A DNA stretch of 64,000 nt from Promethearchaeota archaeon (GTDB lineage: Archaea > Asgardarchaeota > Lokiarchaeia > Sigyniarchaeales > SOKP01), in contig JAGXNO010000004.1 of NCBI GenBank assembly GCA_019894975.1, forward strand, positions 32,001 to 96,000. Direction: 5' to 3'. Positions 35,145 through 43,703 of the stretch are shown here, piece by piece. Within the stretch, counting starts at the first letter, position 1. The number at the start of each line of letters is the position of its first letter. The position numbers and the translations under genes are program-made. Below the pieces are notes generated by a model. The model was given only the letters and a program-made list of their open reading frames with translations, did no database searches and had not been told where the DNA came from.

Positions 35145-36500
35145 TTAAGTTAAATTACGAAATTCGGTAATTGTTTTTTGGAGTTTTTCAAGTAAAATTC
35201 TAATCTCTGAATAACTATCTTTTACTGGTTTTAATTCTGTATCTATTTCTTCAAATTTACCATCAATTTGTGTATTAAAGGGAATGGTAACTTTTTCTAG
35301 ATTCTCAGAAATACTTTTCATAAGGTTTTTTATCTCATCATCTTTATCTGAGGTTAAATTATTTAATTCCATTATTGATGTTGATATCTGAGAGTTTAAA
35401 TTTGAAGTTGATTCTAAAGCATCTAATACTTCTTGTACTTTTCCTTCAAATGGGGTGGTTTTACTGTTTATTTGATTATCAATTGTTATTTTTGATTCTT
35501 CTATTGCGGAGTTTAGAATTTGAGAAATCTCAGTTTTTAATTCCTTCTGACCTTCAACACGTTTATTGATATATTCAGTAATATTTTTCTTAAAAAGACT
35601 AGAAATTTCCTCAAATGTACTATTAAAATATTTTTTAACATCTCTTAGGCCGTCAGAAAGAGTATTTTTCAATTGATTTATCGATCTACTAATATGTTTC
35701 ATACCCTTTAGAGTTCCTTGAGTTACGTCACCAACCCATACATTAAATTGAGTCTCATACGTATCAGCAAGAGCTTCATTTAATTTTGTGAATCCATTAT
35801 TAAATCCAGAAGTTATCTGATTAACCTGTTCTGAATAATCCTTCACGGTTTCATCTATTAAATCTTCTGTTGATAAAGGGATATCTTGAAGTTCTCTTAA
35901 AGATTGTTCCTTAATCTCATTAATCATAACTGGAGACAATCTTTGAGAATCTTCTGCAAACTTCTGAACCCACCTAAAGAAATTTAAATTAGACGGTATC
36001 TCGAGCTCATACGAGATTTCAAAATAATCATTTGATTTTTTATATTCTTTTAATGAATTAATTGCAAATCCAAATCCCCTTTCTTTGCCCATTAGTGTAT
36101 GATCAAAGATAATTACGAAACCATGAGGATTTTTGTCTGTTTGGATAAACTTATGATTTTGAATAGTTATTTCAGTAAAATCTAGGCCCCATCCAGGCCT
36201 TGAGAGATACCAACCTACTATTTTCATGTCTTTTTCTTGATATTCCTTTTCTAATCCAGCAAATAATTCAATATCTTCTTTAGAGAACCCTGTTGATACG
36301 TGAATTCCATGTTGAATTGGAATAATGTTTAATAAATTGATGACTTTGCTAGTTTCATCAACATTTCCTATACAAATACCCATAACTTCTATGCTTTCAT
36401 CCAGTGCTTCATTTCCGAATCTTAATACATGAGTCATCATTCGAATAAAAGCATCTGCCTTGATTATGACTTTAAAATCACTAATTCCGTGTGGCGACAT
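35145..36500 (-). CDS. MPN- (catalytically degenerate JAB/Mov34) domain + coiled-coil protein
   Basis: EVMG.C.G and VGWY retained, but HSH replaced by LSR and S-x2-D by T-x2-T. Confidence 0.82.
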   Translation of the reverse strand: MSPHGISDFKVIIKADAFIRMMTHVLRFGNEALDESIEVMGICIGNVDETSKVINLLNIIPIQHGIHVSTGFSKEDIELFAGLEKEYQEKDMKIVGWYLSRPGWGLDFTEITIQNHKFIQTDKNPHGFVIIFDHTLMGKERGFGFAINSLKEYKKSNDYFEISYELEIPSNLNFFRWVQKFAEDSQRLSPVMINEIKEQSLRELQDIPLSTEDLIDETVKDYSEQVNQITSGFNNGFTKLNEALADTYETQFNVWVGDVTQGTLKGMKHISRSINQLKNTLSDGLRDVKKYFNSTFEEISSLFKKNITEYINKRVEGQKELKTEISQILNSAIEESKITIDNQINSKTTPFEGKVQEVLDALESTSNLNSQISTSIMELNNLTSDKDDEIKNLMKSISENLEKVTIPFNTQIDGKFEEIDTELKPVKDSYSEIRILLEKLQKTITEFRNLT

Positions 36501-36506
36501 TTTTTT

Positions 36507-37997
36507 CTAGTCTCCTCCCTTTTCAAACTTATTTATTTTATTTGATAATTCTTGATTCTCAGCTCTAAGATCCTTCACTGTCTTTTGTAATTCCTTATTT
36601 TCTGTTTGTAATGTACTCAATTTATTCTTGATAGGATTCTTTGAGCTTTCTAATAATATAATCGCTGCTTTTAAATCAGATAAGTAGTTTTTTGTTTCTT
36701 TATATAGATTATTAAGATTTCCTTTAATTTTACTAACCTTTTTATTAAAACTTGTTAATAGATCTTCTTGTACGGTGTTTAAATCGCTTTGAATTAGATT
36801 ATTTATCGACTTATATTTTTCTGTGTATTTTTTTAGGGCACTACTTCCCCCATTTAAACTTTTAATATTATTTGAGAAATTATTATTAAAATCTGATATA
36901 TTATTTGAGATTTTTTCCATCTTTTCTAAAAGTTGTGTAAATCCTTTATCTTCAAATGAGCTTCTAATTTGATTTATACACTCGTCTTTTGATTTCTTAA
37001 CCAACTCTTCAATTTTCTCTTTTTCATTATCTAAATCTTCAAGTTTATCATCAACGTAGAAATCTAAATCTTTTATATCATTTTGTAAATTATAATTGAA
37101 GGATTGCTGTAATGTTATAATCTCATTACTCAATTTATCCCTAATCTCTTTTAAATCATTACGTATTCCCGTATTATTAATAGAAATCTTACCTACTATA
37201 TCCTGTCCCCACGTATTTAAGAAGTATACCATAGGTTTAATTGATGATTCTAGAAAATTATCCATTCCATTTTTTAAAGTGGTAATAATTTCATCAAATC
37301 GTACTTCAGGTAATTTTGATTCTATTTGCTCATCTTCAGGGATAAAAACATCACTAAATAAATCAACAGTTTCATTTAACTCAAGAATTTGGGGAACTCC
37401 CGTATGAACTTTGTTAATTAAGTCCACGATTTTCAAATAAAATTCAAGATTATCAGGAAATATTACATTTGCGTTTACTTCATGGTAATCTGATTTTAAA
37501 GCTAAGGAAGGGTCATCTAGATTCGTTTCACTTAGTCTAAATGCTCTAAATCCAAGTTCATTTGGTTTTTCAAGATATGTGTGATCAAACACTAAACCTA
37601 TACCACTTGGATTTTTTTGCCAAAAAATTTGGTTATATTTGTCAGTTTCACTAAAGAATATACCCAATCCTGGATGTGAATGGTACCATCCAACAGAAAA
37701 CCAACCAAGATCACCATATTGCTCCCATATTTTCGTATCTAATTCTCCAAACGCTCCCAATTGATCAACCGAGAATTTAACTTCTATTGTGCCTCCATGA
37801 GAAACGGGTACTACATCTTCAATAATTACATTTTTAATTTCACCTTCTCCTTCAAGACGGCCAATCAAAACACCCATAACTTCAGATAATTTTGCATGTT
37901 CAATATATTTTGAACCAAAACGTAACACATGAAGTAACATCTTATAGTAAGCAAGGGGTTTAATTGTTACTACACTTTGATCATTAATATTCCCCAT
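36507..37997 (-). CDS. MPN+/JAMM metalloprotease + coiled-coil protein
   Basis: EVMG...GWYHSHPGLGIFFSETD (E-xn-H-x-H-x7-S-x2-D). Confidence 0.88.
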   Translation of the reverse strand: MGNINDQSVVTIKPLAYYKMLLHVLRFGSKYIEHAKLSEVMGVLIGRLEGEGEIKNVIIEDVVPVSHGGTIEVKFSVDQLGAFGELDTKIWEQYGDLGWFSVGWYHSHPGLGIFFSETDKYNQIFWQKNPSGIGLVFDHTYLEKPNELGFRAFRLSETNLDDPSLALKSDYHEVNANVIFPDNLEFYLKIVDLINKVHTGVPQILELNETVDLFSDVFIPEDEQIESKLPEVRFDEIITTLKNGMDNFLESSIKPMVYFLNTWGQDIVGKISINNTGIRNDLKEIRDKLSNEIITLQQSFNYNLQNDIKDLDFYVDDKLEDLDNEKEKIEELVKKSKDECINQIRSSFEDKGFTQLLEKMEKISNNISDFNNNFSNNIKSLNGGSSALKKYTEKYKSINNLIQSDLNTVQEDLLTSFNKKVSKIKGNLNNLYKETKNYLSDLKAAIILLESSKNPIKNKLSTLQTENKELQKTVKDLRAENQELSNKINKFEKGGD

Positions 37998-38139
37998 TAT
38001 AGATTCACTAGTTTTTTCAAATTTATGATATATATATGGTTTGTATGGTTTTAAATATTTGAATAAAAAGTATTTAATTTAAAAAGAACTATTTTTTAAT
38101 TCTACCCTAAAAAATCCATAAGTAAATAATAGGATGGTT

Positions 38140-38784
38140 TTAGACGTGTGGTAATGGTTTACCACAATAGGGGCAAAATTTCCAATCTAAATCCTTCCCG
38201 CAATGTGGACAAAAACTCGATGCTTTTGAGGGAGTTGGTGCTACATCTCCCATTCCTTGTTTTGGGATGGAAGGTAATTCCCTAGTTGTCTTCAATGTTG
38301 CAGTATGATCATCTTCTTTCCTAGCAGCAACAGTAGCTTTAAAAGCTTCCCTTCTCTCTTCTTCGAGTTCTTGTTGAGTTTTTTCTCCCTCAACTTTAAC
38401 CCATCCTTGAACTTGAGGTCTTTTCAATTCACTTTCAGGTACTTTTTCCAATTCAACTGAATTTGTTTCTGATAATGGGGCTACTACCTTTCTTTCTTCT
38501 TTCTTTTGAATTGCTTGTTTAACTAAGGCTTGTGTAGTCTTCATAACCTGATGAGGATTAATATTAGGAATTGCTACTGTACGTAAAACCCAACCTACGA
38601 TAAGATTTTGATTTGGGAATCCACCCTGAACATCTTCATCCTTATAAACATAGGAATCAATTACATCTCTTCCTTTTAACAGACGCGAGGCCCATTTATC
38701 ATTAATCAATCCCAATTGGATTCGATAGCTGGTTCCTGCAATACCCAATTGGCTTGTTAGTGGTTCAAATCCTCTTTCGGTCAC
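38140..38784 (-). CDS. Conserved-looking hypothetical protein with C-terminal double zinc ribbon
   Basis: CPHCG..FCPYCG at the C-terminus; GTG start. Confidence 0.75.
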   Translation of the reverse strand: MTERGFEPLTSQLGIAGTSYRIQLGLINDKWASRLLKGRDVIDSYVYKDEDVQGGFPNQNLIVGWVLRTVAIPNINPHQVMKTTQALVKQAIQKKEERKVVAPLSETNSVELEKVPESELKRPQVQGWVKVEGEKTQQELEEERREAFKATVAARKEDDHTATLKTTRELPSIPKQGMGDVAPTPSKASSFCPHCGKDLDWKFCPYCGKPLPHV

Positions 38785-39040
38785 ATTTAATCACATTTTA
38801 TCTAATAATTATTTGAAATAAGTAATATTATAATGGTAAATTTTGAATTTAAATTCTTATTTATCTCATGCTAAAATTTATTTCTATTATTAAAAGTTTT
38901 TTGGAATGGAATAATCCAATAATTCAAATTATCCCATTTTCCTTATGTAAAAAAAAGATATAAATACAAAAATTTGTATTAATTTGTAAAATAATTATTA
39001 AAAACAGTTTTACTAAAAAATAGGAATACTGGTTGAAAAA

Positions 39041-40028
39041 ATGACAGTAATAATCCAAAAAAGAGCTTACTTAACAATCGTAGCCGCATCAGTGAGATTT
39101 GCTAATGTCCGCATACCTAAAGATGATTGGTTAGAAGTGAGTGGTATTTTTACAGGTCGAAATGAAGGAAATGATGTTTTGGTTTCTAAAGCTTATCCCA
39201 TTATGCATCAAGAACTAGATAAAGATGCTGTTATCGATCAATACAAATGGTCAGATGAAGACTATGAATCACTTTATGTTATTGATGATGAAGCTTTTTC
39301 AAGAGATCCTCCTGAATTTGTTGTTGGTTGGTGGCACTCACATCCTGGTTTTATTTGAACTGGACTTACCAGACTTCAACTAAAAGGTTATGATGTCACA
39401 TATCGATATTCGAACCACTCTCTCTTATCAGCAAAATAATCCTTTAGCAATTTCACTTGTATTTAATCCTCAAAGATTAATAAGACAAATTGAAGTTGCT
39501 GATAAAAAGGGAGACCCTGATAAACAATTAAAAAATGATCCTGGGTTTAAAATTTTCCGATTAGATGATGTTAATAGTGGAACAGAAGCCTCTTATCATA
39601 CTGCTGACTTTAAAATTGAAGAATATGAAAGCATGGAGCAGTTATTAAGGCTTACCCAAAAATTCATTGTTGATATAACTAATTTATTCCCAAAAGAGAA
39701 AGTTCCGCAAACTTATGAAAAAGTTGTGGATGAACGAATAGAACAATTAAACTCATTACTATTAGGTACTGAAGAATATTTAACAACATTAACCCGTCGT
39801 GGTGAAAAACATCGGATTCCCGAGGTACTAGAAAATCAAAATCAAGAAATTAACAGATTTATTGAAGAAACAAATAAGAAGATAGAGTTTATAAGAGAAT
39901 TTATTGGATATTTAGAATTTAAAGAAAGAGACACTATAGTTCCTCAAGTGGAAAAGAATTTATCAAAGTGGGACGAGACTACGAAGGGTTTAGGAAAAAA
40001 GCTGAAAGATCTTTCCAAAAAGTTTTAA
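39041..40028 (+). CDS. MPN+/JAMM metalloprotease + helical C-terminus, interrupted by a 31-nt intron (exons 39041-39352 and 39384-40028; 318 aa spliced)
   Basis: Two ORF-track fragments join to WLEVSG...GWWHSHPGF|KVMMSHID, an intact JAMM motif. Confidence 0.85.
39353..39383 (+). other. Candidate archaeal BHB/BHL-type mRNA intron (31 nt)
   Basis: ATTTGAACTGGACTTACCAGACTTCAACTAA; outer helix CCU/AGG, 4-bp helix GGUU/AACU, 3-nt AAA bulge; canonical cut sites restore the frame. Confidence 0.72.
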
Positions 40029-40165
40029 CCACTTTACAATCAAAAATATTTTTCATCTTATTTTTAATTTTGATAAATTTTTATTTGATTAAGCGTTAAT
40101 TTGATTAAGAAAACTACGAGTCAAAATAATCGCTCTCTAGAGAAATAAAGATTGTATCTTCTATT

Positions 40166-42370
40166 ATGAAAAAACTTAATTTTCCATTCACAGCAATTCT
40201 CGGACAAGACAAGATGAAAATGGGTTTAATTCTTAACCTAATTGATCCTTTAATTGGGGGAATCTTGATGACAGGTCAACAGGGTACAGGAAAAAGCACT
40301 GCTGTTAGAAGTCTCGTGGAATTAATGCCCCAAATCGAAGTTATTAAAGGCTGCGATTTTTCTTGTGATCCTTATTCAGATGTAGATGATGTATGTGAAA
40401 ACTGCAAAGAAAAAATCGAAAATAAAAATGTCGAAACGGAATTTAGAGACATGTGGTTGGTAAATCTACCTTTAGGGGTAACTGAGGACATGGTATGTGG
40501 CTCATTATCTATCGACAAGGTACTTACAGAGGGAATAAGAGCTTTACATCCTGGACTACTTGCTAAAGCAAATCGAGGAATTTTATATGTAGATGAAATT
40601 AATTTACTTCAGGATCATATTGTTGATGTATTATTGGATTCTGCTGCTTCTGGTGTTAATATAATAGAAAGAGAGGGTATTTCAGTCTATCATCCCTCCA
40701 GATTCGTTCTTGTAGGAAGCATGAATCCTGAAGAAGGAGACCTAAGACCACAAATTGCCGATCGTTTGGGTTTAGAGGTTCGGATCAAAGCCCCAAGAGA
40801 TAATGAATTACGCGCTGAGATAACCAAAAGAGTTATTAGTTTTGATGATAATCCAAAGGAATATATTAAACAATTTGAAAGTGACCAGGAAACACTCAGG
40901 AAGAAAATCATAAATGCTCGTAAGCTCGTAAAAGAAGTGCAAATACCTGGTTCAATATATGAATTTGTATCTAAAATCGTGAGTGAATTAGAAATATTCT
41001 CTCAAAGAGCAGATATTACTTTTATTCGATGTGCAAGAGCTAACGCTGCTTTAAATGCTAGGAAATTGATAACTAATGAAGATTTGACAGTAGCAATGGA
41101 TTTGGTCTTTGAACACAGAATTCAATCACTTCAATACGAAATGACTCCTGAAGAGATTAAATCTAAGATTGCAGAAGTTTATGGAAAAATTAAAGAAGCT
41201 TATGAAGATACGAATGTTCTTCAACCTAATCGAGAAACCGAGGGACCATTAAAACATGATGATGGGGAACAAAAAGAGTTTAAACGCCAATCTGTCGATC
41301 CTAATAAAGTAGATATCCCAGAATCAAGAGAACAGAAGCTCCCTCCGCCCAAATATCCTGATGATAAGAAGAGAAATCCTAAACCTGCTGGAGGTTGGAA
41401 AGTTAAAAATATTCCATATGATGAAGATCTTCGATTTTTTGAAGCTAAAAATTCATCTCTACCATTTATATATCAAATGGAAAAAAAGATGACTTCCATC
41501 CTAGACAATATAAGAAAGGATCGAAAGATTTCTGATTATGGAGGTAGAGGAATAGGTAGAAGAATTAAGATATCTTCATCTCAAAAAGGCAGATATGTAT
41601 CATACAGATCACCTATGAGTGAACAGCCAAAACGGATTGCGTTAGATGCAACAATTAGGAATTATCTAAAAAATATAGCCTATAATGAAACTGATATAGA
41701 TTTTCCAATACATTTTAACAAATATGATTTAATGGATAAGATTTATGAATACCGTGCTCCTTTAGCTCTTTTTTTTGTACTAGATAGTTCTGCATCCATG
41801 TATCATGTAATTAGACAAATGACTGATGTAATATTAAGTCTGCATCGAGAAGGATATAGAAAAAGAGATAAAATATCTCTAATAATTTTTCGCGGTAAAC
41901 AAGCTGTAGTTCTTCAGAATCCCACTGTTAACTTTCAGATGGCGGTTAATAAATTGAAAAAGATCGAAGGTAAATCATACACACCCATGGCTGCAGCCCT
42001 TAAAAAGGTTTCAGATCTTATCAAAATTGAAAAATTAAAGGATAGGAACATTATCCCAATTGTATTTGTATGTAGTGATTGTGGTGCTAATATTTCGGTC
42101 AAACATCCCGGTTTAATAGCTCAAGTTGAAACTGATTATATGTTAATTACAGAAGAACTGAAAGATTTAACAAAGAAATTATCAAAACAAAAAATACATA
42201 TGGTGGTGCTGGAACCAAAAAAATCTTATGCTACTCAAGCTCTGGGGGTTCATACTTATTCCGCAGATAAAATTAAAAAGAATTTTAAAAAATATGCTGC
42301 TGCTCAGGTATATAAATTTAACAAATACAATCCCAATTCATTAATTTTGGAATTGAAAAAAATTCTTTAG
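40166..42370 (+). CDS. Mg/Co-chelatase ChlI-ChlD-like AAA+ ATPase with C-terminal VWA domain
   Basis: FPFTAILGQ, GQQGTGKST, ANRGILYVDE, NPEEG; VWA MIDAS DSSASM. Confidence 0.9.
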   Translation: MKKLNFPFTAILGQDKMKMGLILNLIDPLIGGILMTGQQGTGKSTAVRSLVELMPQIEVIKGCDFSCDPYSDVDDVCENCKEKIENKNVETEFRDMWLVNLPLGVTEDMVCGSLSIDKVLTEGIRALHPGLLAKANRGILYVDEINLLQDHIVDVLLDSAASGVNIIEREGISVYHPSRFVLVGSMNPEEGDLRPQIADRLGLEVRIKAPRDNELRAEITKRVISFDDNPKEYIKQFESDQETLRKKIINARKLVKEVQIPGSIYEFVSKIVSELEIFSQRADITFIRCARANAALNARKLITNEDLTVAMDLVFEHRIQSLQYEMTPEEIKSKIAEVYGKIKEAYEDTNVLQPNRETEGPLKHDDGEQKEFKRQSVDPNKVDIPESREQKLPPPKYPDDKKRNPKPAGGWKVKNIPYDEDLRFFEAKNSSLPFIYQMEKKMTSILDNIRKDRKISDYGGRGIGRRIKISSSQKGRYVSYRSPMSEQPKRIALDATIRNYLKNIAYNETDIDFPIHFNKYDLMDKIYEYRAPLALFFVLDSSASMYHVIRQMTDVILSLHREGYRKRDKISLIIFRGKQAVVLQNPTVNFQMAVNKLKKIEGKSYTPMAAALKKVSDLIKIEKLKDRNIIPIVFVCSDCGANISVKHPGLIAQVETDYMLITEELKDLTKKLSKQKIHMVVLEPKKSYATQALGVHTYSADKIKKNFKKYAAAQVYKFNKYNPNSLILELKKIL

Positions 42371-42455
42371 TTGTTAAAATATTTAATACACTTCAACAAA
42401 AGGTATAAAGGATTTCCTAGAAACTTCTTAAATTTTCTATTCTTAATGAAAATAG

Positions 42456-43703
42456 ATGGTAGATAAGACGAATTCTATTCTTGTAGTAGGCTTCAATACA
42501 AGACCGTTAGCTTATTCTTTGAATAAAGCAGGATATGAAATATATGCTGTAGATTTTTTTGGTGATTTGGATCTTTATCCAAGTGTGAAAGATAGTCTAA
42601 TCTTGACTAAAGAGTTAGCAACTAATTACGATTCAATTAAAAACAAATATGCTAAGCTATTTCCTGATTTTACAATAAAAATGTTGGAAAAGTATCCAGA
42701 AATAGATTATTTGATAATTGGAAGTGGATTAGATGATGCTTACAAAGAACGAGAAGATATTTTAAACGAAATACACAATGAGAAATATAAAATTATAAGT
42801 TTGAATAATGATGTAAAAACAATCAAAAGAGCTCGTGATATTGAATTTATTTTCAAAAGGTTAAAAGCTCACGAATTTCGTGTCCCCTTTACCATATCTT
42901 ATGATGGTTTAGAAAATTATAGCAATAATCTTAGATTTCCATGTGTCCTCAAGAAAAAGAGGAGTGCTGGGGGAATAAATATTTTCAATATCAAAAATCC
43001 TGAGGAATTTTCGGCCATAATTAAAAATTTAAAACTTAGGCAGTTTAATCCTTTAGACTGGGCGATTCAAGAATATATTAAAGGAATTCCTATTAGTTGT
43101 ACAACTATATCAAATGGTAAAGAATGTGAAGTTATTTCGATAAATCAACAAATTATTGGGGAACAATTTTTAAATTCCCCAAAAGAGTTTATGTATTGTG
43201 GGAATATTGTACCTGCGGATCTACAGGAAAGTGATGAACAACAAATATCCAAATTATCTATAATGCTATCAATTGAATTAGGTTTAAAAGGAATAAACGG
43301 GTTTGATTTTGTTTTGAAAGACCATCGCCCATTTCTAATGGAAATAAATCCAAGAATCCCCGGGTCGATTAGAGCATCTGAAACAAGTTTAGGTTTGAAT
43401 CTAATGGATTTACACATAAAAAGTTTTGCCCAAAATAAATGGGATAAAATTAAAAGTCAACTTAAATCATCAAAATTTAACTGCTATTCAACGAAATTTA
43501 TATTTTTTGCCCCTAAGGAAATCTATAAAACCCAAATTGTAAAAATAAATAACCTTGAAGGTATACATGATAAAACTGAACCAATAAGGAGTATATTAAA
43601 GGGGGAGCCTGTATGTACCATTTTAGTTAAGAATAAAGTAAAATCGGAATCTTATAATAAAGCTTTAGAGATTGTCTCTAAAATCAATGAAATTATTGAA
43701 TAA
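42456..43703 (+). CDS. Archaeal ATP-grasp domain protein (methanopterin/C1-associated family)
   Basis: G.NTRP.A.S, DFFGD.DL, QEYI.G, FMYCGN, EINPR. Confidence 0.8.
   Translation: MVDKTNSILVVGFNTRPLAYSLNKAGYEIYAVDFFGDLDLYPSVKDSLILTKELATNYDSIKNKYAKLFPDFTIKMLEKYPEIDYLIIGSGLDDAYKEREDILNEIHNEKYKIISLNNDVKTIKRARDIEFIFKRLKAHEFRVPFTISYDGLENYSNNLRFPCVLKKKRSAGGINIFNIKNPEEFSAIIKNLKLRQFNPLDWAIQEYIKGIPISCTTISNGKECEVISINQQIIGEQFLNSPKEFMYCGNIVPADLQESDEQQISKLSIMLSIELGLKGINGFDFVLKDHRPFLMEINPRIPGSIRASETSLGLNLMDLHIKSFAQNKWDKIKSQLKSSKFNCYSTKFIFFAPKEIYKTQIVKINNLEGIHDKTEPIRSILKGEPVCTILVKNKVKSESYNKALEIVSKINEIIE

What the first reader, a model, noticed from the sequence alone, without database searches (positions are those of the whole stretch)
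39341..39395. Candidate tRNA-type (BHB/BHL) intron inside the catalytic motif of an Asgard JAMM/MPN+ protein-coding gene
Seen in the sequence: ORF 39041 stops (TGA 39356) just after HSHPGF, and the rest of the domain continues in another frame. Removing exactly 31 nt (39353-39383; 39354-39384 gives the same product) yields CAT CCT GGT TTT|AAG GTT ATG ATG TCA CAT ATC GAT = HSHPGFKVMMSHID. That is the exact JAMM spacing H-x-H-x7-S-x2-D, matching the intact neighbour paralogue (HSHPGLGIFFSETD). The RNA can fold as: outer exon-exon helix C44C45U46/A85G86G87; central 4-bp helix G47G48U49U50/A78A79C80U81; 3-nt bulge A82A83A84; 5' loop U51-U56; inner stem GAA-CUGG/CCAG-(AC)-UUC capped by ACUUA. Established knowledge: archaeal EndA cuts after the second unpaired nucleotide 3' of the central helix on each strand. 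Here that is after U39352 and after A39383, the same two junctions derived independently from the protein motif. The best-known archaeal mRNA intron of this kind is in crenarchaeal cbf5; I am not aware of one in an Asgard ubiquitin-like protease gene. Inference: a genuine EndA/RtcB-spliced mRNA intron.
Basis: partly seen in the sequence, partly recalled or inferred. Interest (0 to 1): 0.95.

Follow-up and report, generated by a model that had tools for sequence, protein, structure and literature searches.

The report
tRNA-type mini-intron in Asgard JAMM gene
A 31-base insert shaped like the introns that archaea cut out of tRNAs splits the active-site motif of a deubiquitinase-like (JAMM/MPN+) gene in this Asgard archaeon. 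Comparison with 50 sister species indicates that it is cut out of the messenger RNA, which print reports for only one archaeal coding sequence (cbf5).

Summary
The JAMM gene at 39041-40028 is broken after HSHPGF by 31 nt (39353-39383) carrying a TGA and a +1 frame shift.

- **The insert is real DNA.** Independent contigs from four runs of four studies cover it without a difference.
- **Relatives define the junction.** In the same genus, 38 orthologues have no insert and read HSHPGFKVMMSHID. Twelve carry a 29-32 nt insert at exactly this site.
[quoted passage not shown] The predicted EndA cuts fall on the junction defined by the intronless alleles.
- **The gene is under selection.** Both halves have dN/dS of 0.07-0.17. 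The intron is more conserved than four-fold degenerate sites.
- **The machinery is present.** The genome encodes two divergent EndA paralogues (crenarchaeal alpha/beta-like) and RtcB.

The best reading is an EndA/RtcB-spliced mRNA intron (about 0.8).

Two weaknesses remain. I found no RNA data. This genome's variant has a relaxed 6-nt 5' bulge and is not the minimum-energy fold.

Earlier notes of this scan report the same kind of intron in other genes of this genome, in other Asgard genomes, and in this JAMM gene in other genomes. The papers I could search report only cbf5 and a Haloferax 5' UTR.

The parts
39041..39352 (+). Exon 1 of the JAMM/MPN+ gene (codons 1-104, ends ...GWWHSHPGF)
   Evidence: ORF list. 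Pfam JAB, E = 4e-08, cut off at profile position 97 of 117. Aligns to the N-terminal 104 residues of 38 intronless orthologues.
39353..39383 (+). 31-nt intron. It carries TGA at 39356-58 and ends in TAA in the exon-2 frame. The boundaries 39354-39384 would give the same product.
   Evidence: Absent, to the base, from 38 same-genus orthologues. Present as 29-32 nt at the same site in 11 other genomes. Present in independent DNA contigs. Found by covariance model R1 at E = 5.7e-13.
39384..40028 (+). Exon 2 (KVMMSHID... to the stop at 40026-40028; 214 codons)
   Evidence: The Lys-Val codons upstream of the first ATG vary only synonymously in intron-bearing alleles.
39344..39346 (+). Outer (exon-exon) helix, 5' strand CCU. 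Pairs with AGG at 39385-39387.
   Evidence: Sequence. 79% of cells are paired across alleles.
39347..39350 (+). Central 4-bp helix, 5' strand GGUU (exonic; includes the Gly wobble base). Pairs with AACU at 39378-39381.
   Evidence: 100% paired in 11 distinct sequences. Two of the four pairs show changes on both sides (GGUU/AACU, GGCU/AGCU, GACU/AGUU).
39351..39356 (+). 5' bulge holding the 5' cut (after U39352). It is 6 nt here (UU|AUUU) instead of the canonical 3.
   Evidence: Sequence and constrained fold. Seven orthologues have the canonical 3-nt bulge closed by an inner helix.
39357..39377 (+). Intron hairpin (GAA-CUGG, loop ACUUA, CCAG-AC-UUC). It abuts the central helix on the 3' side.
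   Evidence: Folds. The apical G-C pairs are kept in all alleles, and the lower pairs covary.
39378..39381 (+). Central helix, 3' strand AACU (intronic)
39382..39384 (+). Canonical 3-nt 3' bulge AAA holding the 3' cut (after A39383)
   Evidence: AAA in 12 of 14 alleles, AGA and AUA in the other two. The cut after the second bulge residue follows the rule stated in PMC2738675.
39385..39387 (+). Outer helix, 3' strand AGG (inside the Lys-Val codons)

Best explanation
The insert at 39353-39383 is an archaeal splicing-endonuclease (EndA) type intron inside the coding sequence of a CSN5/Rpn11-like JAMM gene.

In the transcript, exon bases CCU-GGUU pair with intron bases AACU and exon bases AGG. This forms an outer helix and a 4-bp central helix. 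On the 3' side lies a canonical AAA bulge. On the 5' side lies an enlarged bulge, followed by the intron hairpin.

- **Shown:** the geometry, its conservation, and the match between the predicted cuts and the intronless junction.
- **Inferred:** the heteromeric EndA of this genome cuts after the second bulge residue on each strand (after U39352 and after A39383). RtcB then joins the exons, giving an mRNA for a 318-aa protein with an intact H-x-H-x7-S-x2-D zinc site, and releases a 31-nt (probably circular) intron. Unspliced RNA would give only a 105-aa fragment lacking the Ser and Asp of the motif.
- **History (inferred):** the intron was most likely gained once near the base of this genus. 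It was then lost precisely many times, or exchanged between alleles.
For: 1. **Real DNA.** Contigs from runs of four studies bridge the insert with 0 differences and 0 gaps.
2. **Distribution.** Of 50 same-genus genomes with the gene, 38 are uninterrupted and read ...HSHPGFKVMMSHID.... Twelve have inserts of 29, 30, 31 or 32 nt at the identical site, each with an in-frame stop or a frame shift. Each of those genomes has only this one orthologue.
3. **Covariation.** 85% of cells are paired, against 19-55% when partners are slid. Eight pairs show changes on both sides (0 of 500 shuffles reach this). The central helix is 100% paired.
4. **Exon constraint.** The exonic Gly wobble base covaries with the intron. 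GGC is used in 9 of 12 intron-bearing alleles and in 4 of 38 intronless ones.
5. **Canonical folds in relatives.** Seven orthologous introns fold into a canonical helix-bulge-helix-bulge-helix as their unconstrained minimum-energy structure.
6. **Cut sites.** The rule 'between the second and third bulge residue' (PMC2738675) gives exactly the junction seen in the intronless alleles.
7. **Selection.** dN/dS is 0.07-0.17 in both halves between intron-bearing genes, like intronless pairs at 0.04-0.08. pN/pS is 0.13 against a 95%-identical relative with the same intron.
8. **Intron conservation.** Mean intron identity is 0.67, against 0.41 at four-fold sites of the same genes.
9. **Untranslatable without splicing.** The Lys-Val codons between the intron and the first ATG change only synonymously. 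They are preceded by an in-frame TAA or TAG, so they can be translated only after splicing.
10. **Machinery.** There are two EndA paralogues of 202 and 200 aa (30% identical). One is most similar to the Aeropyrum catalytic subunit and keeps Tyr and His. The other has Phe and Lys at those positions. RtcB is present.
11. **Domain restored.** The intronless orthologue (89% identical) matches Pfam JAB across the junction (residues 2-122). It aligns through the motif to CSN5 and Rpn11.
Against: This genome's variant (shared with 4 other genomes and 3 metagenome contigs) lacks the inner pair that closes a 3-nt 5' bulge, so the bulge is 6 nt. The BHB-constrained fold (-4.4 kcal/mol) is less stable than an alternative long hairpin (-8.3). 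The folding z-score is only -1.06. Efficient cleavage would therefore need a broad-specificity enzyme.

No experiment on any Asgard EndA is known to me, and the preprint 10.64898/2026.10.13.758758 says none has been done.

In a close relative with the same intron (L065, a single short contig), the motif Ser reads Leu.
Confidence: 0.8

Rival explanations
1. Split gene. The two halves are translated separately (105 aa ending ...HSHPGFI, and 212 aa from the ATG-ATG at 39390) and assemble into a JAMM domain without RNA splicing.
For: Both halves are intact and under purifying selection. An ATG-ATG follows the insert directly. Gene callers routinely predict 211-212 aa products.
Against: The ATG-ATG is the conserved Met-Met of the motif in all intronless orthologues, not a new start. 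The Lys-Val codons upstream of it stay synonymous although they would be untranslated. A split gene does not explain the conserved BHB geometry, the helix covariation involving exon bases, or the higher conservation of the insert compared with silent sites. It would divide the zinc ligands His-x-His and Asp between two chains.
Confidence: 0.08
2. Decaying intron or pseudogene in this lineage. The insert descends from a true BHB intron, but the relaxed variant in this genome is no longer (or only poorly) spliced, so the gene is dying here.
For: The 5' bulge is 6 nt, the closing pair is lost (U.C), and the BHB is not the minimum-energy fold. The relative L065 has Ser to Leu in the motif.
Against: The relaxed variant persists in two diverged clades (dS above 1-2), with dN/dS of 0.07-0.09 between them and no stops or frameshifts in either half. 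pN/pS is 0.13 within the own lineage. True decay in this family looks different: the G101 copy is truncated with an internal TAA, and the G140 copy is frameshifted.
Confidence: 0.07
3. Translational recoding. Ribosomes bypass or frameshift across the insert.
For: A stop follows directly after the take-off region, with a hairpin, superficially like phage T4 gene 60.
Against: Insert lengths of 29, 30, 31 and 32 nt give all three frame relations, so no single frameshift works. There is no landing codon matching the Phe take-off codon before AAG (the intron ends CUAA). The conserved feature is BHB geometry.
Confidence: 0.03
4. Assembly or sequencing artefact.
For: The genome is a metagenome-assembled draft of 175 contigs.
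Against: Identical sequence appears in contigs of four runs from four studies. Homologous inserts occur in 11 other genomes and 3 metagenome contigs.
Confidence: 0.01

Closest known systems
BHB intron in the cbf5 (pseudouridine synthase) pre-mRNA of Crenarchaeota (Watanabe 2002; Yokobori 2009, PMC2738675)
   Same: Both are short EndA-type introns inside a protein-coding sequence. Both disrupt a catalytic motif (the catalytic Asp codon in cbf5, the JAMM zinc motif here). In cbf5 most motifs are 'unconventional' BHBs, handled by a heteromeric endonuclease. The cuts fall between the 2nd and 3rd bulge residues. The distribution is patchy, with inferred secondary losses.
   Different: The phylum differs (Asgard/Promethearchaeota rather than Crenarchaeota), and so does the gene. 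Here the intron is confined to one genus (12 of 50 species). Splicing was shown experimentally for cbf5 but not here.
BHB intron in the 5' UTR of HVO_1309, Haloferax volcanii (PMC7714728)
   Same: It is an mRNA substrate of the archaeal splicing endonuclease. It was found as a circular RNA and is cut in vitro.
   Different: It lies in the untranslated leader (46 nt) and does not interrupt a reading frame.
Archaeal pre-tRNA introns, including the many non-canonical ones of Asgard tRNA genes (preprint 10.64898/2026.10.13.758758)
   Same: They share the motif, the size range and the presumed enzymes. The preprint reports two EndA paralogues consistent with an (alpha-beta)2 enzyme in most Asgard genomes, as found here.
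   Different: The host RNA here is a messenger. [quoted passage not shown]
Unconventional HAC1/XBP1 mRNA splicing in eukaryotes (IRE1 cleavage, tRNA-ligase/RtcB joining). This comparison is from my own knowledge.
   Same: A small (26 nt in XBP1) frame-shifting intron is removed from a mature-looking mRNA without the spliceosome, and the exons are joined by the tRNA ligase.
   Different: The nuclease differs (IRE1 rather than EndA/TSEN), as does the recognition motif (twin stem-loops). That splicing is regulated by stress. No regulation is shown here.

Membership tests
Archaeal EndA-type (bulge-helix-bulge) intron | 4-bp central helix between the two cleavage sites | tested here: met
   39347-50 pairs with 39378-81. 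The helix is 100% paired in 11 distinct alleles, and 2 of the 4 pairs show compensatory changes.
Archaeal EndA-type (bulge-helix-bulge) intron | 3-nt bulge 3' of the central helix on the 3' strand, closed by an exon-exon helix | tested here: met
   AAA at 39382-84, followed by AGG pairing with CCU.
Archaeal EndA-type (bulge-helix-bulge) intron | 3-nt bulge on the 5' strand, closed by an intron helix (strict hBHBh') | tested here: not met
   This genome has a 6-nt bulge (39351-56), a relaxed BHL-like form. Seven of the 12 orthologous introns do meet the strict form. The window's copy is therefore a relaxed member of a family whose other members are canonical.
Archaeal EndA-type (bulge-helix-bulge) intron | Cuts after the 2nd bulge residue on each strand give a functional joined product | tested here: met
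   The predicted cuts (after 39352 and after 39383) reproduce the sequence of 38 intronless orthologues and the JAMM spacing.
Archaeal EndA-type (bulge-helix-bulge) intron | Host encodes the splicing endonuclease and RtcB ligase | tested here: met
   PF01974 is found twice (101 and 66 bits) and PF01139 twice, one of them a partial match at a contig end. The two EndA paralogues look like alpha and beta subunits.
Archaeal EndA-type (bulge-helix-bulge) intron | Spliced RNA and/or excised circular intron observed; cleavage by EndA in vitro | not testable with these tools
   No RNA run is listed. No spliced-form protein or contig was found.
JAMM/MPN+ metalloprotease (CSN5/Rpn11-like) | MPN fold match above the Pfam cut-off | tested here: met
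   PF01398 scores 33.5 bits on exon 1 alone. It scores 48.2 bits across the junction in the 89%-identical intronless orthologue. The best solved relatives are CSN5 and Rpn11.
JAMM/MPN+ metalloprotease (CSN5/Rpn11-like) | E...H-x-H-x7-S-x2-D zinc and catalytic motif | tested here: met
   The motif is complete only after removal of 39353-39383. It aligns to HSHPGYGCWLSGID of CSN5.

The most novel reading that the evidence does not exclude
The intron is not just tolerated but acts as a gate. Only EndA/RtcB-spliced transcripts give the active JAMM protease, while unspliced RNA yields a truncated 105-aa MPN fragment. Under this reading, the tRNA-splicing machinery of Asgard archaea post-transcriptionally controls a CSN5/Rpn11-like enzyme, as a prokaryotic counterpart of IRE1/RtcB-type unconventional mRNA splicing. 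The strong conservation of the intron's primary sequence (0.67 against 0.41 at silent sites) leaves room for a function beyond mere removability. So does the persistence of a thermodynamically 'weak' variant in two separate clades.
Probability: 0.12. Interest if true: 0.9.

Novelty: new member of a known kind. Interest (0 to 1): 0.74.

Why it matters
In the papers I could search, EndA-type splicing of a coding sequence in archaea is documented only for cbf5 of Crenarchaeota. A 2020 study says so explicitly (PMC7714728).

Here the same mechanism is strongly indicated in the archaeal lineage closest to eukaryotes, in a eukaryote-like CSN5/Rpn11-type gene. The natural 'experiment' of 12 intron-bearing and 38 intronless sister alleles fixes the splice junction to the base.

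- **Annotation.** Gene callers split such genes into two 'hypothetical proteins'.
- **Intron evolution.** The many precise losses imply a spliced-RNA or recombination route.
- **Origin of mRNA processing.** It bears on how far protein-mediated mRNA splicing had developed before eukaryotes.

It also offers a compact test substrate, in canonical and relaxed variants of one intron, for the substrate range of Asgard EndA.

Tried and rejected
- **RNA evidence.** The look-up of sequencing runs listed no RNA holder. No DNA contig laid on the region showed a joined form.
- **Spliced form among proteins.** Among the best 120 database proteins, none is a near-identical full-length version of any of the 12 intron-bearing genes. 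The best full-length matches are 77-93% identical, that is, other species.
- **Spliced form among contigs.** The exact-junction pattern of this genome is absent from JGI metagenome contigs. A degenerate GGC-junction pattern found 8 contigs, all only 70-76% identical to the intron-bearing genes, so they are intronless alleles of other species.
- **Genome-wide scan.** My scan for 'BHB plus ORF-joining' did not discriminate (observed 4813/303 against expected 4552/294). Ordinary gene boundaries satisfy the ORF criterion. I used it only for background motif frequencies.
- **Is the intron a mobile sequence family?** Model R1 finds only this site in the own genome, and only the 12 orthologous sites among 135 family genomes. 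The two extra weak hits (C173; G147) lie inside intact ORFs.
- **Conversion tracts.** Silent-site identity within 20 codons of the junction is 0.44, against 0.41 overall, so there is no sign of recent gene-conversion tracts.
- **P0004.** Despite its 212-aa call, it is an intronless allele with an in-frame stop elsewhere, on a low-coverage contig.
- **Window-wide checks.** No tRNA gene lies in the window.

Full report
**1. Observation**

The sequence is exactly as described.
- An ORF from 39041 encodes an MPN/JAB domain (Pfam PF01398, E = 4e-08). The match is cut off at profile position 97 of 117.
- The ORF ends ...GWWHSHPGFI with TGA at 39356-58.
- The rest, (KV)MMSHID..., continues in the +1 frame to 40028.
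- Deleting 39353-39383 (31 nt) gives H-S-H-PGFKVMM-S-HI-D. This is the JAMM spacing of the intact paralogue next door (HSHPGLGIFFSETD, 36507-37997 minus strand).
- The window is contig C120:32001-96000 of a 3.9-Mb, 175-contig draft genome. Database relatives are labelled Promethearchaeota/Lokiarchaeia, that is, Asgard.

**2. Not an artefact**

Assembled contigs of four public runs from four studies were laid on 38900-40100. In all four, a contig crosses the insert without a single difference or gap. Examples are 39203-39933 in X4, 39217-39648 in X5 and 39318-39516 in X7. X1 may be the source sample. The others are independent.

**3. Orthologues fix the junction**

I ran a six-frame search with exon 2 over 135 genomes of the family and found the gene in 122.
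- In the window's genus, 50 genomes have it.
- In 38 of them it is one open frame of about 316-319 codons that reads ...HSHPGFKVMMSHID....
- In 12 genomes (G000, G001, G004, G013, G015, G074, G077, G080, G086, G089, G098, G099) the open frame stops exactly at the Lys codon.
- In those 12 there is an insert of 29, 30, 31 or 32 nt between the Phe and Lys codons.
- No genome of the 12 other genera of the family has the insert.
- Three further metagenome contigs carry it.
- The 30-nt inserts are in frame but contain a stop. The others shift the frame. Only removal of the whole insert restores the protein.
- Each of the 12 genomes has only this one orthologue.

**4. Structure and covariation**

All inserts share one architecture.
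- The exon bases CCN-GRYU are followed by UU or UC, then the cut.
- The intron starts with one more unpaired base, forms a hairpin, and ends with ARYU plus two more bases (AA in 12 of 14 alleles). The second cut follows.
- The 3' exon starts A-AGG or A-AAG.

Counted on the MAFFT alignment A1:
- 85% of the cells of my 16-pair structure are standard pairs. This falls to 19-55% when partners are slid by 1-3 columns.
- Eight pairs show changes on both sides, a value reached by 0 of 500 shuffles.
- The 4-bp central helix is paired in every sequence. It occurs as GGUU/AACU, GGCU/AGCU, GACU/AGUU and GGCU/AGUU.
- One of the covarying positions is the wobble base of the exonic Gly codon. GGC is used by 9 of 12 intron-bearing alleles and by 4 of 38 intronless ones, which prefer GGA.
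- These sequences are related, so the shuffle count is not a probability. The slid-partner control and the repeated independent pair types are the stronger argument.

The published rule is that the endonuclease cuts between the second and third residue of each bulge (PMC2738675). That places the cuts after U39352 and A39383, which is exactly the junction defined by the intronless alleles.

In this genome's composition, only 0.39% of arbitrary (site, length) combinations show even the central helix plus two outer pairs in register. Only 0.025% also show three inner pairs.

**5. Two structural classes**

- **Canonical class.** Seven introns (G001, G013, G015, G074, G086, G089, G099) are canonical helix-bulge-helix-bulge-helix motifs. 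Their 5' bulge is exactly 3 nt and is closed by an inner helix such as AAAG/CUUU. In their unconstrained minimum-energy fold, the central helix, the 5' bulge and the inner helix all appear.
- **Relaxed class.** The window's intron belongs here, with G004, G077, G080, G098 and contigs L065, L067, L068. Its start AUUUGAA leaves 6-7 unpaired bases on the 5' side.
  - Some members keep a single closing pair (U-A or G-C) next to the central helix. The window's copy has U.C there.
  - For the window, the BHB-constrained fold is -4.4 kcal/mol, against -8.3 for a competing long hairpin. The 66-nt fold has z = -1.06.
This is the main internal weakness.

**6. Selection**

- Between intron-bearing genes, dN/dS is 0.07-0.17, in both the N-terminal and the C-terminal half. 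Intronless pairs give 0.04-0.08.
- Against a 95%-identical relative with the same relaxed intron, pN/pS is 0.13, from 22 synonymous and 11 non-synonymous differences.
- Real decay in this family looks different. G101 has a truncated copy with an internal TAA. G140 has a frameshift at about codon 37.
- The introns themselves are on average 67% identical (up to 90% between G000 and G004). Four-fold degenerate sites of the same genes are 41% identical, with no rise near the junction. The insert is therefore under selection itself.
- The Lys-Val codons between the intron and the first ATG vary only synonymously. They are preceded by an in-frame TAA or TAG. That makes sense only if they are translated after splicing.

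**7. Machinery**

- The genome has two PF01974 (tRNA intron endonuclease) genes of 202 and 200 codons, 30% identical.
- The first is most similar to the catalytic subunit of the Aeropyrum pernix heterotetramer (3p1z_B, E = 1e-34). It keeps Tyr and His at the spacing of the catalytic residues.
- The second has Phe and Lys at those positions. The identity of the catalytic triad is from my own knowledge.
- This matches the (alpha-beta)2 architecture. According to PMC5829648 (abstract), this architecture and the epsilon2 type are the only ones that cut non-canonical introns. A 2026 preprint reports it for most Asgard genomes.
- RtcB is present.
- ARAGORN calls introns in 13 of the 29 tRNA genes it finds in this genome.

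**8. History**

- On a maximum-likelihood tree of 56 coding sequences, intron presence needs at least 9 changes, 7 of them forced by well-supported branches.
- All introns sit at one site and are alignable. I therefore infer one gain near the base of the genus, followed by many precise losses. Possible routes are recombination with reverse-transcribed spliced RNA, or with intronless alleles, as discussed for cbf5 in PMC2738675. Some lateral exchange is also possible.
- The relaxed class occurs in two separate clades of the gene tree, which I cannot explain.
- A covariance model of the intron finds only the 12 orthologous sites in 135 genomes, and no other site in the own genome. It is thus not a dispersed sequence family.

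**9. Product**

The 89%-identical intronless orthologue matches Pfam JAB over residues 2-122, across the junction. It aligns through the motif to CSN5 and Rpn11.

The gene sits in a conserved cluster:
- an MPN+/MPN-like pair with coiled-coil tails;
- a zinc-ribbon protein;
- downstream, an AAA+/vWA protein and an ATP-grasp enzyme.

**10. What is missing**

I found no RNA evidence. The searches are listed under Tried and rejected. Splicing is therefore inferred, not shown.

**11. Comparison and novelty**

- The kind is known: the cbf5 intron of Crenarchaeota is a relaxed BHB inside a catalytic codon, handled by a heteromeric EndA, with patchy loss.
- A 2020 paper states that cbf5 was the only reported BHB intron in an archaeal mRNA besides their Haloferax 5' UTR case (PMC7714728).
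- My searches found no paper on such introns in Asgard protein genes.
- Earlier notes of this scan, unchecked by me, report the same kind of intron in other genes of this very genome (cdhC, purA, dnaG and others). They also report it in other Asgard genomes, and first-reader notes record this JAMM intron in other genomes.
- I therefore class this as a new member of a known kind. It is well supported by comparative evidence, and the phenomenon it belongs to is more interesting than the single instance.

Noticed in passing
Gene tree of L001-L060; introns in A2: The relaxed intron variant (start AUUUGAA) occurs in two separate clades of the host-gene tree (G000/G080 and G004/G077/G098). It is 84-94% identical between them, although four-fold sites of the host genes are only about 40% identical. 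A canonical-class intron (G086) sits closer to the second clade. This could mean lateral exchange of the intron, strong sequence constraint, or a poorly resolved tree.
   Followed up: partly
L065:45-686 (Logan contig, 95% identical to exon 2): A close relative with the same intron reads KVMMLHID: the Ser of the JAMM motif is Leu (TCA to TTA). This is a single short contig, so it may be an error or a sign of loss of activity in that strain.
   Followed up: no
L028 (G101:C2:11966-13244): The same-genus genome G101 keeps only residues 127-318 of this gene, with an internal TAA. It is a genuine pseudogene remnant and a useful contrast to the intron-bearing alleles.
   Followed up: partly
L029 (G140:C11:62585-63826): The orthologue in another genus has a one-base frame change near codon 37 (...DDWLEVNGI / GRNEGNDV...) with no insert. 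It is either a sequencing error or a frameshifted gene.
   Followed up: no
window 35145-43703: There is a conserved cluster here. It holds two tandem MPN-domain genes with long coiled-coil tails (36507-37997 with an intact JAMM motif; 35145-36500) and a zinc-ribbon protein (38140-38784). Then come the intron-bearing JAMM gene, a ChlI/ChlD-like AAA+-vWA protein (40166-42370) and an ATP-grasp enzyme (42456-43703).
   Followed up: partly
L005, L007, L047, L054 (orthologues in G014, G001, G095, G047): These orthologues have no ATG at the conserved N-terminus (MTVIIPK...). The frame is open, but the start seems to be a non-ATG codon (TTG, GTG or ATT/ATA-like).
   Followed up: no
whole genome G000: ARAGORN finds only 29 tRNA genes in a genome that is 95% complete, and 13 of them have a called intron. 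Many tRNA genes are probably missed because of multiple or non-canonical introns.
   Followed up: no
L066 (ENA contig NODE_348840, coverage 1.85): An intronless allele (85% identical) has an in-frame stop at ...VIDQ*KW.... It sits on a low-coverage contig, so this is probably a sequencing error.
   Followed up: no
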